64,000 bases of DNA, from the IMG/VR virus record IMGVR_UViG_3300029288_001872, positions 125,633-189,632 of that record; one strand, given 5' to 3'. This stretch comes from a virus. Lineage: Duplodnaviria > Caudoviricetes. Below the pieces are notes generated by a model that was not told the DNA's origin, searched no databases, and worked only from the letters and a program-made list of their open reading frames with translations. The translations under genes and the position numbers were made by a program. Positions 5,020 through 62,068 of this stretch are shown here, one piece after another. Within the stretch, counting starts at the first letter, position 1. Every line of letters begins with the position of its first letter.

Positions 5020-5096
5020 CGGCCCTTGGCGCAGTCTGGTAGCGCACTTGCCTTGGGCGCAAGGGGTCCTTGGTTCAAATCCAAGAGGGCCGACCA
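5020..5096 (+). tRNA. tRNA-Pro(TGG)
   Basis: Cloverleaf: CGGCCCT/AGGGCCG acceptor, CTTGC-CTTGGGC-GCAAG anticodon arm, TTCAAAT T-loop, encoded CCA. Confidence 0.95.
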
Positions 5097-11212: not shown

Positions 11213-11328
11213 GGTATGGTCGGGTCAGGTTTGGTATGGTTGGGTCTGGTGTGGTGAGGTCAGGTAGGGTTAGGTAAGGTGTGGTAAGGTGAGGGTGTAA
11301 GTCTAGAAAATTAGGCTTACACAGTTTT
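11213..11328 (+). ncRNA. guide array A: 16 x GGT-NN plus terminal hairpin
   Basis: Perfect 5-nt periodicity 11213-11292; stem 11295-11305/11312-11322 followed by AGTTTT. Confidence 0.8.
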
Positions 11329-24672: not shown

Positions 24673-24748
24673 GCGGGGATAGCTCAATTGGTAGAGCGCA
24701 GACCTTCCCGGTCTGAGGTTGAAGGATCATACCCTTCTCCCCGCTCCA
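24673..24748 (+). tRNA. tRNA-Gly(TCC), atypical loops
   Basis: GCGGGGA/TCCCCGC acceptor, T73, CCA; anticodon loop CTTCCCG; T-loop ATCATAC. Confidence 0.8.
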
Positions 24749-29359: not shown

Positions 29360-30019
29360 ATGGCAGCAAAGAAAGACGTAACTGGAATTGTTCCAAGAAA
29401 AGATGTGGCAATCCCGCCTCCACAATTTCAAACTGTTGAGTTTACAATTGTTGGTGATGCTCCTTATGTCCAACAAAGATTTTCTCAGAAGGCAATTGAG
29501 CAAATCAAGGCGGTCCAACTGGCAGGTTCCAAGAGCAAGAAAGGAAAGGCTCGCGAACCAAAAGATTTTCAAGAATGTTATGAACAAGCTAAACACATTT
29601 CGACAGAAGGCTGGTGTGGTATTCCTGCATCTTCCTTTCGTGCTGCAATGATTTCTGCTTGTCGTTTGGTTGGGTTTAAGATGACTTTGGCTAAACTTTC
29701 AATTTTCATTCCTGCTGATGGTTTTGATGTGGTTGATGGAACACCATTGATTAAGTTTTCTAAAGGCGAACCGCGCTATGTTGAACACGCTATGAGAATT
29801 CCTGGTATTGGTGGCGGAGGTACAGATATTCGCCCTCGTCCGATGTGGGACCCAGGTTGGGAAGCAAAAGTGCGTGTCACTTTTGATGAGGCGCAATTTT
29901 CCGCGGAAGATGTAACCAATTTGATGATGAGGGTTGGTATGCAAGTTGGTTTGGGTGAAGGTCGCCCCGATTCCAGAAGTAGTGTTGGTATGGGATGGGG
30001 GACTTTCCAACTGAAATAA
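29360..30019 (+). CDS. stand-alone Cas7/RAMP-like protein (candidate guide-binding effector)
   Basis: N-terminal strand 'VEFTIVGDAPY', IPASSFRAAM (RAMP IPgSslKGa-like), C-terminal G-rich loop GLGEGRP..GMGWGTF; directly followed by the arrays. Confidence 0.75.
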   Translation: MAAKKDVTGIVPRKDVAIPPPQFQTVEFTIVGDAPYVQQRFSQKAIEQIKAVQLAGSKSKKGKAREPKDFQECYEQAKHISTEGWCGIPASSFRAAMISACRLVGFKMTLAKLSIFIPADGFDVVDGTPLIKFSKGEPRYVEHAMRIPGIGGGGTDIRPRPMWDPGWEAKVRVTFDEAQFSAEDVTNLMMRVGMQVGLGEGRPDSRSSVGMGWGTFQLK

Positions 30020-34175: not shown

Positions 34176-34418
34176 GTCAACCACCCTATAACTATTAAAA
34201 TGTTATGAACTTTAAGTTCGAGGTTGACCAGACTCAGCTAGAGTCACAAGACTATCGGGCTACGTTAATTGAATCATGACACCTTGGGATGCGCGCCAGT
34301 CCCATGCTCTGTCAACTAACATTAAACAGACATACGGGGTTGAAGTCAGTGTGTTGGTTGTAAAAAGTTTAATTAACCTTGTCGAGGCAAACATTACCCT
34401 AGAAATAGGAGGCTCATT
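34176..34418 (+). ncRNA. omegaRNA (HEARO-like) scaffold of IscB
   Basis: GTCAACC...GGTTGACCAGACTCAG, CTACGTT, GACACCTTGGGATGC..CCAGTCCCATGCTCTGTC, TTGTCGAGG; directly 5' of iscB. Confidence 0.8.
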
Positions 34419-35666
34419 TTGAGTAAGGTTTTTGTTTTAGATACTAATAAAAGACCGTTAAATATGGTTCATCCAGGAAGAGCAAGAAAATTGCTTTCTT
34501 CTGGTCAAGCAGCAGTATTCAAAAGATATCCTTTTACAATTATTCTGAAGAAGGAAGTTAATTCGCTTATTAAACCATTGAGAATCAAAATTGATCCGGG
34601 AAGTAGATTTACAGGGTTGGCTTTGGTTGAAGAGAAAGAAGTGGTTTTTGCTGCTGAGATTGAACACAGAGGACATAGGATTAAGAAATTATTGGATTCA
34701 AGAAGAATGATTCGTCAGCATCGTAGAAGTAGAAAAACTAGATATCGTCAAGCAAGATTTTTAAATAGAAAGAAACCAAAAGGTTGGATTCCACCATCTT
34801 TGGAAAGCAGGGTACAAAATATCAAAACATGGGTAAGTCGTTTAAGCAAATTGGCACCAATAAATTCAATTTCTTTAGAATTGGTTAAGTTTGATTTACA
34901 GAAACTTCAAAATCCAGAAATTTCTGGAATAGAATATCAACAAGGAGAATTATTTGGCTATGAAGTTAGAGAATATTTGTTAGAGAAATGGAAAAGAAAA
35001 TGTGCTTATTGTGAATGTGTAGATAAACCATTACAAGTTGAACATATCGTTCCAAAATCTCGTAGTGGTTCAAATAGGGTATCAAATTTGACTTTGGCTT
35101 GTGAAAAGTGTAATCAAAAGAAGGGAAATCTTACCGCTGAAGAATTTGGTTTTCCTGATATTCAAAAACAAGCTAAGAAACCACTTAAAGATGCGACAAT
35201 AGTCAATGCAACAAGATGGAGATTATTCAATTTGTTAAAAGAATTTAACTTTCCATTAGAAATAGGAAGCGGAGGAAGAACCAAATTTAATAGAACAAAC
35301 CAAAATTATCCTAAAACCCATTGGATTGATGCGGCTTGTGTTGGCAAATCTGGAAAGGAAATTGAAATACCTTATTGGATAAAACCTTTATATATTAAAG
35401 CATTTGGTCATGGTTCTCGCCAGAAATGTAGGACAGATAAATATGGTTTTCCTAAATCTTATGTTCCTAAAGAGAAGTCTTTTATGGGATATAAGACTGG
35501 AGATATTGTAAAAGCAAATGTTTTAAAAGGAAAGTATAGAGGACATTATATTGGAAGAATAGCTATTAGACATAGACCAAATTTTATATTAAATAACTTT
35601 GATGTCAATCCGAAGTATTTAAAGATTGTGCAAAAAATGGATGGGTATGGATATTTGTTAAATTAA
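34419..35666 (+). mobile_element. iscB: IscB RNA-guided endonuclease (IS200/IS605 family, no tnpA seen)
   Basis: PLMP-like N-terminus, IDPGS (RuvC-I), RRSRKTRYRQARFLNR, CAYC..VEHIVPKSRSGSNRVSNL (HNH), HWIDA. Confidence 0.95.
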
Positions 35667-37464: not shown

Positions 37465-37548
37465 ATCGGTGTGGCGGAACGGAATACGCAGTTGCCTCAA
37501 GAGCAACCGGAGAAATCCATAGGAGTTCGAATCTCCTCACCGATACCA
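37465..37548 (+). tRNA. tRNA-Leu(CAA)
   Basis: ATCGGTG/CACCGAT acceptor, GTTGC-CTCAAGA-GCAAC arm, long variable arm, TTCGAAT, CCA. Confidence 0.92.
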
Positions 37549-59394: not shown

Positions 59395-59542
59395 GGTAAG
59401 GTGCGGTTGGGTGAGGTATGGTATGGTCAGGTATGGTCTGGTAAGGTTAGGTGGGGTCGTGTAGGGTGAGGTTTGGTAAGGTATGGTAAGGGTTTGGTTG
59501 TCATTTTCCAATTAAATCTTATTGGAAAATGACAACAATTTT
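59395..59542 (+). ncRNA. guide array B: 19 x GGT-NN plus 16-bp hairpin
   Basis: Pentamers 59395-59489; stem 59497-59512/59521-59536 then AATTTT. Confidence 0.8.
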
Positions 59543-59573: not shown

Positions 59574-60260
59574 ATGCAAATACCAGATACATTAATTCTT
59601 TGTGGCGGTCTTGGTGAAAGACTAAGACCTCTTACCGACAATCATCAAAAATGTATGTTGCCAGTACAAGGAAGGCCATTTCTTGAATACACAGTGGATA
59701 AAATTAAACAATTGGAATTAAAACCACCTATTTTCTGTTGTGGTCATAAATCAGATGAAATAATCAATCATTTTGGAAACGGATATAAATTTTCATATCG
59801 CGACAATATAAATACTGGAGCAAGGATTAAAGAAGCATTATCTTTAATTCACTCAGAACATTCTATCGTCTTTAATGGAGATTCATATTGCAACATAGAC
59901 TATAATTATTTTTGGTACACATATAAGGAATTTATCAATTTAGGAAAAGATGTTTGCAAAATATTGGTTCACAAAAAGAACTCTTTATTAGCTTCATATA
60001 TTTCCAGTTCTGTATATGATTATTATGGTGCTGGAATTTATTTCTTCAAAAAGAATTATATAGAAAGTTTAGAGAAGAATGACAACCTTTCTATAGAAGA
60101 TGATATTTTACCAAATTGTAAAAAGATTTATAATTGTGCCATTCCAGAAGAATTTTTTGTAATTGATATTGGTACTAAAGAAAATTATGAGATGGTAAAT
60201 AGCAAGGAGAATAAATATGGACAATTTTTTACCGACGCAAATAAATGGGTTGTTGAGTAA
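59574..60260 (+). CDS. sugar-phosphate nucleotidyltransferase (HddC-like)
   Basis: LCGGLGERLRPLT..K, NGDS, DIGT. Confidence 0.85.
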   Translation: MQIPDTLILCGGLGERLRPLTDNHQKCMLPVQGRPFLEYTVDKIKQLELKPPIFCCGHKSDEIINHFGNGYKFSYRDNINTGARIKEALSLIHSEHSIVFNGDSYCNIDYNYFWYTYKEFINLGKDVCKILVHKKNSLLASYISSSVYDYYGAGIYFFKKNYIESLEKNDNLSIEDDILPNCKKIYNCAIPEEFFVIDIGTKENYEMVNSKENKYGQFFTDANKWVVE

Positions 60261-60720
60261 ACCATTAAAAGTAATTCCAGACTTTAGGGGAGAATTTCAA
60301 AAAATTAGTTTAAATAGCCCTTTTGTAGAACAAGACATGGCTGTCTCGTATAATAATGTTCTTCGCGGGTTTCATTATGTAACTGAAGGACGACGAATAT
60401 TCTCTCTTGTTCATGGTAGATTATATTGTGTATTTTTGGATATTCAAGAGGAGTCTGATACTAAAAATGACTGGTTTGGTATAACTCTTGATAGTAGTAA
60501 TAGACAAAGATTTTTGATTCCATCATATGTGGCTTGTTCTTATCTTGTTCTTTCTCCTGTTGCTATAGTCCATTATGAATTAGAATTTGAGTATGATGAA
60601 TCCAAGCAGAAGACAATAAGATTTGATGATGAAAGATTCAATGTATATTTCCCAGGCGATCATAAAGGCTATATACTTAGCGAAAGAGATTATTTTATAG
60701 ACGAATCATTAATTAGATAA
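60217..60720 (+). CDS. rmlC: dTDP-4-dehydrorhamnose 3,5-epimerase family
   Basis: DFRGEF, VLRGFH, ILSERD. Confidence 0.8.
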   Translation: MDNFLPTQINGLLSKPLKVIPDFRGEFQKISLNSPFVEQDMAVSYNNVLRGFHYVTEGRRIFSLVHGRLYCVFLDIQEESDTKNDWFGITLDSSNRQRFLIPSYVACSYLVLSPVAIVHYELEFEYDESKQKTIRFDDERFNVYFPGDHKGYILSERDYFIDESLIR

Positions 60721-60737
60721 ATTTTAAACATGTTTGT

Positions 60738-60881
60738 GGTACGGTGAGGTGGGGTAAGGTAGGGTATGGTTTGGTACTGTCCAGTATGGTTTGGTGGGGT
60801 AAGGTTTGGTAAGGTTGGGTGTGGTAAGGTGAGGGTTGCTTCTTTTGTTTTAACAATTTGATAGAAAGAAGCAACAGTTTT
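60738..60881 (+). ncRNA. guide array C: 19 x (G)GT-NN plus hairpin
   Basis: Pentamers 60738-60832; stem GTTGCTTCTTT/AAAGAAGCAAC then AGTTTT. Confidence 0.8.
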
Positions 60882-60915
60882 AACAAATAAAGTTCACAAT
60901 AAGGTAAAAAATCAA

Positions 60916-61896
60916 GTGATTATCGCAAGGTCGCCCTATCGAATTTCATTCCTAGGTGGAAATTCAGATCAAGCTGATTGGTTTAATCTGCATGGCGGTT
61001 GTGTTCTATCTACTACGATAGATAAATATTGCTATATAATGGTTAAGCCAATTACAAACTTTTTTGGGTATAATTATAAAATTGTTTATCGAAAAATAGA
61101 AAATGTTAATACTTTGGATGAAATAGAACATTATACAGCAAGAGAATGTATAAGATATTCTGGAATTAAGACGGGACTAGAAGTGCATCACTCTGGAGAC
61201 CTACCTGCCCGGAGCGGGATGGCTTCTTCAAGTGCTTATGCCACTGCGTTATTATTGGCTCTTTATACTTTAGATGGCAAATATGTAGATAAAGGCCAAT
61301 TAGCAAAAGATGCTATCTATATAGAAAGAAATGTATTGCAAGAAGTAGGCGGAGTGCAAGACCAACTGGCATGTTCTTTCGGGGGATTTAATAAAATAGA
61401 ATTTCTTGATAATAATTTATATCATACTTTTCCAATTCCTATAAGTAGAGAACGATCAGAATTATTTCAAAATCACCTATTGCTATTTTATTTAGGCACG
61501 ACTAGAGCCGCATCAGAAATTTCCAAAACTTTTGTTCCAAACATAGATAGTAAGAGAAGACAACTTAGAGTTTCAAAAGAATTGGTTGAAGAAGGAATTA
61601 ACATACTGTGTTCAAATTCTGATATCAGATTATTTGGCGATTTGTTGCATGAATACTGGATGTTGAAACGTTCATTAAGTGATAAAGTTAGTGATGAAAA
61701 TATAGATAATTATTATGAATTGGCAATGAAAAACGAAGCCATAGGCGGGAAGGTCTTGGGAGCAGGGGGCGGAGGTTTTCTATTATTATTTGCAGAACCA
61801 GATAAACACAATAAAATTATAGAAGGATTTAATGATTTACTTCATGTTCCATTTAAGTTTGAAAAAACAGGTTCAACAATTATCTTTAAAGGTTGA
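60916..61896 (+). CDS. GHMP sugar kinase (HddA heptose-7-phosphate kinase-like)
   Basis: PYRISFLGG, PARSGMASSS, GGVQDQ, GGKVLGAGGGG. Confidence 0.9.
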   Translation: MIIARSPYRISFLGGNSDQADWFNLHGGCVLSTTIDKYCYIMVKPITNFFGYNYKIVYRKIENVNTLDEIEHYTARECIRYSGIKTGLEVHHSGDLPARSGMASSSAYATALLLALYTLDGKYVDKGQLAKDAIYIERNVLQEVGGVQDQLACSFGGFNKIEFLDNNLYHTFPIPISRERSELFQNHLLLFYLGTTRAASEISKTFVPNIDSKRRQLRVSKELVEEGINILCSNSDIRLFGDLLHEYWMLKRSLSDKVSDENIDNYYELAMKNEAIGGKVLGAGGGGFLLLFAEPDKHNKIIEGFNDLLHVPFKFEKTGSTIIFKG

Positions 61897-61951: not shown

Positions 61952-62068
61952 GGTCCGGTTCGGTACGGTATGGTTAGGTATGGTCAGGTCCGGTTTGGTA
62001 AGGTTTGGTCGGGTAGGGTAAGGTGAGGGTACTAATCCTACTACACTCGGTAGGATTAGTACAATTTT
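61952..62068 (+). ncRNA. guide array D: 15 x GGT-NN plus hairpin
   Basis: Pentamers 61952-62026; stem 62029-62042/62049-62062 then AATTTT. Confidence 0.8.

What the first reader, a model, noticed from the sequence alone, without database searches (positions are those of the whole stretch)
60379..60881. Array C decodes to an internal segment of the upstream rmlC-like gene
Leading gt plus NN = ac ga gg aa ag at tt ac cc at tt gg aa tt aa tg gt vs codons 60379-60432 (VTEGRRIFSLVHGRLYCV) gives 10/18 dinucleotides and 26/36 nt identical. It decodes as V-T-E-G-K-R-I-F-T-P-I-F/L-G-K-L-N-C-V. The site lies about 300 bp upstream, so the arrays are not simple local duplications of abutting DNA.
Basis: partly seen in the sequence, partly recalled or inferred. 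Interest (0 to 1): 0.8.

Follow-up and report, generated by a model that had tools for sequence, protein, structure and literature searches.

The report
Lone VIPR guide aimed at sister phages
The five-base repeat behind this phage's sugar-epimerase (RmlC-like) gene is a stand-alone guide RNA of the recently described CRISPR-like VIPR system: its variable letters spell 18 codons of that gene as sister phages carry it (83-89% match) and fit the phage's own altered copy worse (72%), so it is a clear new example of a known kind, not a new code.

Summary
The NN series of array C matches codon positions 1-2 of window 60379-60432 at 26/36 nt and 10/18 units, in frame. It is the single best site in the window and in the 189,632-bp genome (next best 23). 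About 1% of 600 shuffled guides reach 26.

This is the published VIPR code (three 2026 bioRxiv preprints): GGY/NN repeats whose NN pairs read double-stranded DNA while skipping every third, wobble base. Only a 1-nt skip gives a signal here.

The own gene is not the best referent. The same segment scores 32/36 in a 187,988-bp sister phage (next best there 25; 0 of 600 shuffles above 26), and 31/36 and 30/36 in two metagenome alleles. These pass the papers' 80% target threshold; the own copy (72%) does not. All seven homologues read FTP[IVL][FY]G[KR], and the guide spells TPIFGK. The own gene reads FSLVHGR.

The sister phage lacks array C. The genome encodes a stand-alone Cas7-fold Vipr-like protein.

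Most likely this is a solo vrRNA that silences rival alleles during co-infection. Expression, the loading Vipr and silencing are untested.

Earlier reports of this scan reached the same reading for neighbouring arrays of this genome. The VIPR lead came from them.

The parts
60217..60720 (+). RmlC-like gene (dTDP-4-dehydrorhamnose 3,5-epimerase family), the phage's own allele of the guide's target gene
   Evidence: PF00908, E 6.9e-26. Seven homologues at 54-78% identity.
60379..60432 (+). Own-allele counterpart of the target site (codons 55-72, VTEGRRIFSLVHGRLYCV). Match to guide C is 26/36 = 0.72, with four consecutive mismatched units (9-12) in the middle.
60736..60822 (+). Variable part of array C: a leading GT plus 17 five-base units, giving 18 NN guide dinucleotides. 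Fifteen scaffolds are GGT; units 9 and 10 carry TGT and AGT.
60823..60834 (+). Constant 3' junction GGTAA GGTGA GG. The same AA-GA-GGGT junction ends arrays g1, A0, C and D, so it is probably handle rather than guide.
60835..60875 (+). Tail hairpin: 12-bp stem (60835-60846 with 60864-60875) and a 17-nt loop.
   Evidence: RNAfold. Eight of the nine arrays in the genome carry an 11-16 bp perfect hairpin at this position. The orthologous tails of own array A0 and the sister phage's array differ by a compensatory pair.
60876..60884 (+). AGTTTTAAC after the hairpin (T run 60878-60881). Probable 3' end or terminator of the small RNA.
   Evidence: Sequence. The same A(A/G)TTTT follows the other tails. 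The consensus terminator scan did not flag it: loop over 8 nt and only 4 T.
29360..30019 (+). Stand-alone Cas7-fold (RAMP) gene, the only Vipr candidate in this genome. It lies about 31 kb upstream of array C.
   Evidence: AlphaFold2 pLDDT 81.7. The top Foldseek PDB hits are Csm3/Cmr/Cas7 RAMP subunits of type III and VII complexes, E 1e-4, prob 1.0. The family has more than 6,900 unannotated members. There is no Pfam or PDB sequence hit.
59395..59487 (+). Neighbouring solo array (my 'A', the scan's 'B'). Its NN series matches the last 21 codons of the upstream epimerase gene at 27/36.
61952..62024 (+). Neighbouring solo array D. Its best sister-phage hit is 22/28 on the minus strand.
11213..11290 (+). 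Solo array A0. It scores 0.67 on the abutting own gene end and 0.80 on the sister phage.

Best explanation
Array C is a solo (orphan) VIPR guide RNA gene, a vrRNA. The following steps are inferred from the published mechanism.

1. The roughly 145-nt stretch 60736-60881 is transcribed and ends at its hairpin tail.
2. Vipr protomers, each a stand-alone Cas7-like RAMP, bind one per GGY scaffold and expose the NN pairs.
3. The filament pairs those NN pairs with positions 1-2 of 17-18 consecutive codons on the template strand of double-stranded DNA, flipping out each wobble base.
4. The resulting R-loop triplex blocks transcription.

What is shown here is the code, the target preference and the genomic setting. 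The guide matches the RmlC-like gene of sister phages above the published 80% threshold. It matches the phage's own allele below that threshold. That allele carries own-lineage-specific replacements (T63S, P64L, and H where the others have F/Y) in the middle of the site.

The most likely role is therefore to silence the rival's sugar-nucleotide operon during co-infection while sparing self.

Which Vipr loads the guide is unresolved. It could be the phage's own 219-aa protein. It could also be a Vipr brought by the rival, since the sister phage carries three other Vipr types that this phage lacks.
For: Code:
- Only a 1-nt skip gives a signal (own 26, sister 32, against 22-24 for skips 0 and 2).
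- The match is in frame and wobble-aligned in the own gene and in the sister gene.

Target:
- 32/36 at the orthologous site of sister phage G001. It is the unique best hit in 187,988 bp (next best 25). None of 600 shuffled guides exceeds 26, and z is about 12.
- 31/36 and 30/36 in two further metagenome alleles.
- Protein P0002 allows up to 34/36.
- Self match is 0.72, below 0.8. The papers likewise report no self hits at or above 80%.

Scaffold and tail:
- GGT in 17 of the 19 five-base units before the GGG junction, with 11 different dinucleotides among the 18 NN.
- A hairpin tail is shared in form by 8 of the 9 arrays, with one compensatory change between orthologous tails.

Protein partner:
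- A Cas7-fold stand-alone gene is present.
- Of 117 viral loci fetched only by the DNA pattern (GGTNN)10, 51 encode a homologue of this protein or of the sister's Vipr-like protein.

Setting:
- The sister phage has the same gene order but a 106-aa ORF where array C sits.
- Four other guides of this phage also hit the sister genome above their shuffled ceilings (g1 0.93, A0 0.80, D 0.79, A 0.75). For g1, A0 and D the own-genome match stays at ceiling level.
- One sister guide hits this phage at 0.88.

Published mechanism.
Against: - There is no expression data.
- No promoter was identified, only one weak sigma-70-like match at 60649-60677.
- No allele with a perfect match was found. Unit 16 (AA against TA, Tyr) mismatches every known allele.
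- If the two constant 3' units are counted as guide, sister identity falls to 0.79-0.80 and the other alleles fall to 0.74-0.78.
- Two adjacent scaffolds are TGT and AGT, not GGY. Published mutations of GGY abolish silencing, although the sister's Vipr-adjacent array is mostly TGT/NN.
- Array C has 20 units, against 9-16 published.
- The own Vipr's flanking arrays use a different, staggered GGCAGG-delimited layout, so cognate pairing is uncertain.
- 'Escape' of the own allele is only suggestive. Two of the four own-unique replacements at otherwise invariant residues lie in the site (p = 0.058). Divergence at positions 1-2 inside the site is not significantly raised (0.25 against 0.17, p = 0.16).
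Confidence: 0.75

Rival explanations
1. Self-regulation. The partial match is functional, and array C with Vipr binds the phage's own RmlC-like gene weakly to tune or time expression of its own sugar operon.
For: The own site is the best site in the own genome and exceeds about 99% of shuffled-guide maxima. It lies 300 nt upstream in the same operon. The Oct 2026 paper counts REP decoy matches at identities from 0.722 upward.
Against: Identity of 0.72 is below the 0.8 threshold used for targets. The papers found no self hits at or above 0.8. Four consecutive central units are mismatched. Every other allele found matches better than the own one, which is not expected for a self-regulator.
Confidence: 0.08
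2. Relic. The array once matched an ancestral sequence of this gene, either as a former guide or as a product of an unknown local guide-writing process. It is now a decaying, non-functional tract kept only as a terminator hairpin.
For: Two adjacent scaffolds are degenerate (TGT, AGT). No perfect target was found. Arrays g2, E and F of the same genome have no detectable target. The hairpin plus T run could serve as an operon terminator.
Against: The other 17 five-base units before the GGG junction keep GGT. A neutral tract would not keep a 0.83-0.89 match to three diverged alleles that are themselves only about 77-94% identical to one another at codon positions 1-2. TGT/AGT units are the norm in the array next to one sister Vipr gene.
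Confidence: 0.12
3. Chance resemblance. The tract is a protein-binding or G-quadruplex/attenuator RNA element whose NN letters carry no information.
For: G2N3 repeats could form two-tier quadruplexes. The tract sits between genes in front of a hairpin. A test of 155 heterogeneous (GGTNN)n arrays from other phages showed no general enrichment of matches in their own upstream 600 nt.
Against: A score of 32/36 in the sister genome was never approached by 600 shuffles. It falls on the orthologue of the adjacent gene, in frame. Four other arrays behave the same way. The absence of local matches elsewhere is expected if targets usually lie in other genomes.
Confidence: 0.03

Closest known systems
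Solo (orphan) vrRNAs of VIPR systems in phages and satellites (Lopez et al., bioRxiv 10.64898/2026.10.15.759431)
   Same: A single GGY/NN array with a structured tail, standing away from any vipr gene. It uses the wobble-aligned 1-nt-skip code. Its self-match is lower than its match to relatives, so it avoids autoimmunity while aiming at competing phages.
   Different: The published solos target vipr genes, other vrRNAs, satellites or host REP decoys in Enterobacteriaceae phages. This one targets a sugar-nucleotide enzyme gene of sister phages. It sits directly behind the phage's own mismatched allele of that same gene, in an uncultured 190-kb, 33% GC phage. Its tail is a plain hairpin plus U run rather than the SUSP1 pseudoknot, and it has 20 units rather than 9-16.
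Type II VIPR of Escherichia phage SUSP1 and the P. fulva prophage (bioRxiv 10.64898/2026.04.26.720920; structures 10.64898/2026.04.26.720927)
   Same: The pentameric GGY/NN scaffold. NN pairs read codon positions 1-2 of double-stranded DNA. There is no PAM. Targets lie in competing mobile elements. The partner is a stand-alone RAMP protein.
   Different: The guide is not in the vipr-vap locus. The Vipr-like proteins here have no detectable sequence match to anything in the PDB copy. Function is inferred, not assayed.
Virus-borne mini-CRISPR arrays (Medvedeva et al. 2019, PMC6858448; seen, not read in full)
   Same: A virus carries a minimal guide against close relatives, and its own genome is mismatched. 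This is interviral conflict and superinfection exclusion using an effector encoded elsewhere.
   Different: Those are CRISPR repeats and contiguous spacers that use host Cas proteins. Here the code is gapped and the effector is a viral RAMP.
Free-standing homing endonucleases of T4-like phages (Seg/Mob, 'marker exclusion'); from my own knowledge, not checked here
   Same: A selfish insert in an intergenic gap acts on the rival's allele of the neighbouring gene, while the carrier's allele is resistant through local sequence differences.
   Different: That is protein-guided cleavage and gene conversion, not RNA-guided silencing. No evidence of conversion tracts was found here.

Membership tests
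VIPR vrRNA (solo) | Tandem 5-nt units with a conserved GGY scaffold and hypervariable NN | tested here: met
   There are 20 units in register: 17 GGT, one TGT, one AGT and a terminal GGG. The 18 guide NN include 11 different dinucleotides. At 20 units it is longer than the published 9-16.
VIPR vrRNA (solo) | NN series matches a target in another mobile element at 80% or more under the 1-nt-skip rule, with skips on wobble positions | tested here: met
   0.89, 0.86 and 0.83 on three alleles of the RmlC-like gene, all in frame. It is the unique best hit in the sister genome, and 0 of 600 shuffles exceed 26/36. Skips 0 and 2 give nothing; skip 3 finds only the array itself. With the two constant 3' units counted, identity is 0.74-0.80.
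VIPR vrRNA (solo) | No self-target at or above 80% | tested here: met
   The own-genome best is 26/36 = 0.72 and the next is 23/36.
VIPR vrRNA (solo) | Structured, conserved 3' tail after the repeats | tested here: met
   A 12-bp hairpin plus T run follows the array. The junction AA-GA-GGGT is shared by four arrays. Eight of nine arrays have an equivalent hairpin, and there is one compensatory pair between orthologous tails. A pseudoknot, as in SUSP1, was not examined.
VIPR vrRNA (solo) | A Vipr protein (minimal stand-alone RAMP) is available | tested here: met
   The ORF at window 29360-30019 has a Cas7/Csm3/Cmr4-like predicted fold. Fifty-one of 117 loci fetched by the (GGTNN)10 pattern encode a homologue of it or of the sister's Vipr-like protein. 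Whether this Vipr type loads hairpin-tailed GGT/NN solos was not tested.
VIPR vrRNA (solo) | Expressed as a discrete small RNA that co-purifies with Vipr | not testable with these tools
No RNA data were available.
VIPR vrRNA (solo) | Guide-dependent transcriptional silencing of the target | not testable with these tools
   This needs a reporter or co-infection experiment.
RmlC (dTDP-4-dehydrorhamnose 3,5-epimerase) family, for the upstream gene | Match to PF00908 above the gathering score | tested here: met
   91.4 bits against a cut-off of 27, E 6.9e-26. Catalytic residues were not checked.
CRISPR array | Direct repeats of 25-40 nt separated by contiguous spacers | tested here: not met
   Only a 5-nt period is present and there are no long repeats. 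Rfam gives no CRISPR direct-repeat hit in the window.
Intrinsic terminator / attenuator only | GC-rich short-loop hairpin followed by a run of at least 5 T | tested here: inconclusive
   The consensus scan found none in 60150-61000. The hairpin has a 17-nt loop and 4 T. This reading does not explain the NN information.

The most novel reading that the evidence does not exclude
Guide and resistant allele may form one linked selfish module, an RNA-guided counterpart of homing-endonuclease 'marker exclusion'.

In this phage lineage, solo guides sit immediately next to the carrier's own mismatched allele of the very gene they silence in rivals. This holds for arrays g1, A0, C and D here, and for at least one reciprocal guide in the sister phage. 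Recombination in mixed infections would then move guide and immunity together and penalise rivals that lack them.

A bolder variant is that this adjacency reflects a still unknown local process that writes new period-5 guides from the neighbouring period-3 coding sequence. No adaptation mechanism is known for VIPR.
Probability: 0.3. Interest if true: 0.7.

Novelty: new member of a known kind. Interest (0 to 1): 0.5.

Why it matters
VIPR was described only in 2026 preprints, mostly from enterobacterial phages and their satellites. This locus shows the same gapped code in a large uncultured phage. It is used against ordinary metabolic (sugar-modification) genes of sister phages, not only against regulators, recombinases or vipr itself.

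The layout, with the guide parked beside a mismatched self allele, gives a simple and testable pair of near-identical target sites: 32/36 against 26/36. That pair could calibrate how many NN mismatches VIPR tolerates and where. This matters both for understanding phage-phage conflict and for using Vipr as a programmable DNA binder.

It also shows that nine arrays in one genome can be read as a map of which genes two phage lineages fight over.

Tried and rejected
1. Before finding the VIPR papers I considered a TRAP-like ring-protein attenuator, SD-like standby sites, two-tier G-quadruplexes, concatenated T4-type pentamer primers, quintuplet or +2 frameshift decoding, and ribosome-templated copying. 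None explains an ordered, in-frame, wobble-skipping match to another phage's allele.
2. The literature search for 'GGTNN' found nothing relevant.
3. The exact full-guide pattern found 0 hits in IMG/VR. A relaxed 10-unit pattern found only the sister phage.
4. The search for related loci with the single protein found no relative. With the alignment it found the sister phage and two metagenome contigs.
5. I tested whether arrays in general match their own upstream 600 nt, using 155 arrays from 117 loci. There was no enrichment: 10 of 155 at p < 0.05. Local matching is therefore special to this lineage and is not a property of all arrays.
6. The escape-allele tests are only suggestive (p = 0.058; p = 0.16).
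7. The Vipr candidate has no sequence hit in the PDB copy or in Pfam.
10. megablast of the region against GenBank phages gave no match.

Full report
**What is there.** The window is the last 64 kb of a 189,632-bp IMG/VR virus record. It has 33% GC and nearly all long ORFs lie on the + strand.

The genome holds nine tracts of (GGTNN)n with 13-21 units. All are on the + strand and all are intergenic. Eight of the nine are followed at once by a perfect 11-16 bp hairpin and A(A/G)TTTT. Five of them lie in the gaps of a sugar-nucleotide gene cluster: epimerase/dehydratase, NTP-transferase, RmlC-like, GHMP kinase and GT2.

Array C (60736-60834) follows the stop codon of the RmlC-like gene (60217-60720; PF00908, E 7e-26). 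It precedes the hairpin at 60835-60875.

**Checking the observation.** The 18 NN units of array C, laid on every third-base-skipping register, give 26/36 nt and 10/18 dinucleotides at 60379-60432, exactly as reported.

- The site is in the gene's reading frame, so the skipped base is the wobble base.
- It is the only site at or above 24 in the window and in the genome.
- Maxima for 600 shuffled guides average 23.0 (sd 0.8-0.9) and reach 26 in about 1% of shuffles.
- Treating the upstream 500 nt as one of 760 equal windows gives p of about 0.001.
- Arrays A, A0 and g3 behave the same way, and g1 does so more weakly. The Fisher combined p is 1e-6, limited by the floor of the test.

The refutation criterion ('equal or better random sites are common') is therefore not met.

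**What it is.** I first had no mechanism for a period-3 to period-5 correspondence. Earlier reports of this scan on neighbouring arrays named the VIPR system, and I then read the primary papers.

- VIPR consists of a stand-alone RAMP protein (Vipr) and vrRNAs made of GGY/NN pentamers capped by a structured tail.
- Each Vipr protomer sequesters one GGY.
- The NN pairs base-pair with double-stranded DNA while every third target base is flipped out. This is usually the codon wobble base.
- Binding represses transcription.
- Targets are called at 80% or more NN identity, and no self hits reach that level.
- Solo vrRNAs away from vipr genes are known.

These points come from bioRxiv 10.64898/2026.04.26.720920.720927 and 10.64898/2026.10.15.759431.

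**Testing membership.**

- *Code.* Only a 1-nt skip gives a signal.
- *Target.* Seven homologues of the RmlC-like protein all read FTP[IVL][FY]G[KR] where this phage reads FSLVHGR, and the guide spells TPIFGK. At the DNA level the guide scores 32/36 on the sister phage IMGVR_UViG_3300014204_000113 (G001, 187,988 bp), and 31/36 and 30/36 on two metagenome alleles. All three are in frame. In the whole sister genome this site is the unique best (next best 25). No shuffled guide exceeded 26, giving z of about 12.
- *Self.* The own match of 0.72 is below threshold.
- *Tail.* There is a 12-bp hairpin plus U run. The junction GGTAA-GGTGA-GGGT is shared with arrays g1, A0 and D. One compensatory pair separates the orthologous tails of own array A0 and the sister phage's array.
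- *Protein.* ORF 29360-30019 folds with pLDDT 82 into a structure whose best PDB matches are Csm3/Cmr/Cas7 RAMP subunits of type III and VII complexes. Independently, 51 of 117 viral loci retrieved only by the pattern (GGTNN)10 encode a homologue of this protein or of the sister phage's Vipr-like protein.

**Setting.** The sister phage has the same gene order at 74-90% nucleotide identity. Between its RmlC-like and GHMP-kinase genes it carries a 106-aa CxxC ORF instead of array C, and it has no array D. A third relative has nothing in that gap.

Other guides of this phage also hit the sister genome well above their shuffled ceilings: g1 0.93, A0 0.80 and D 0.79. Their own-genome matches stay at ceiling level. 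One sister guide hits this phage at 0.88.

Array C is therefore one of a set of guides that two phage lineages aim at each other's alleles. Each guide is parked beside the carrier's own mismatched allele.

**What remains uncertain.**

1. *Which Vipr loads array C.* This phage has one Vipr-like gene, and its flanking arrays are of a different, GGCAGG-delimited staggered type. The sister phage has three other Vipr-like genes. One of them is preceded by an array ending GGTAA-GGTAT-GGGTT plus hairpin, like the solos here. Another is preceded by a TGT/NN array. That gene and its array are missing from the syntenic spot of this genome. The solos may therefore work with the rival's protein, as in the published 'guns for hire' idea, or with the phage's own.
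2. *Whether the own allele 'escaped'.* T63S and P64L are two of only four own-unique changes at otherwise invariant residues, and both lie in the site (p = 0.058). Divergence at positions 1-2 in the site is not significantly raised (p = 0.16). The site is a divergence hot spot between the two close alleles L118 and L119 (7/36 against 18/300, p = 0.01).
3. *Imperfect features of the guide.* No perfect target was found. Unit 16 mismatches all alleles. Two scaffolds are TGT and AGT. Counting the constant 3' units lowers identities to 0.74-0.80.

**Verdict.** The thing is a solo VIPR guide whose true referent is the rival allele of the adjacent gene. It is a well-supported new member of a known kind.

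The guide/mismatched-self-allele adjacency is its most interesting feature. This scan had already noted that feature on other arrays of the same genome.

Noticed in passing
window 34176-35666: Rfam HEARO RNA (135 bits, E 7e-28) is followed directly by a 415-aa ORF (34419-35666). This is the layout of an IscB/omega-RNA element, here inside a phage genome.
   Followed up: no
G001 (sister phage) 126578-127105; L043 7297-7827 and 11281-11835: The sister phage carries three divergent Vipr-like genes of 176-188 aa. The 188-aa one is 22-28% identical to this phage's 219-aa protein; the other two gave no tblastn hit in this genome (E 0.01 or better). The 188-aa gene is preceded by a TGT/NN array, not GGT/NN. 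This phage lacks all three. At the syntenic spot of the 188-aa gene (own genome 9474-9715) it has a 68-aa ORF.
   Followed up: partly
G001 68927-68989 against own genome 136735 (window about 11103): There is reciprocal targeting. A sister-phage solo array at the position homologous to own array A0 matches this phage's allele at 21/24 = 0.88 and matches its own genome at 0.75.
   Followed up: partly
L118 6160-6213 against L119 929-982: The 18-codon target window is a divergence hot spot between two otherwise close RmlC-like alleles. Positions 1-2 differ at 7/36 inside the window and 18/300 outside (Fisher p = 0.01). This is compatible with an arms race at the site.
   Followed up: partly
window 63104-63171 and 63207-63309; L118 8841-8908 and 8943-9020: Tandem arrays E and F are present in both phages at the same place. 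The GGT scaffold is kept, but the NN series differ by unit insertions, deletions and replacements. Array E has no clear hairpin tail, and no target was found for E or F.
   Followed up: partly
loci L001-L117: (GGTNN)10 or longer occurs in well over 117 IMG/VR contigs across 25-68% GC. Many arrays start right after a TGA stop codon. Some hits are simple microsatellites such as (GGTTA)n and (GGTGT)n, or coding repeats, not guides.
   Followed up: partly
window 5020-5093, 24673-24745, 37465-37545: Rfam finds three tRNA genes.
   Followed up: no
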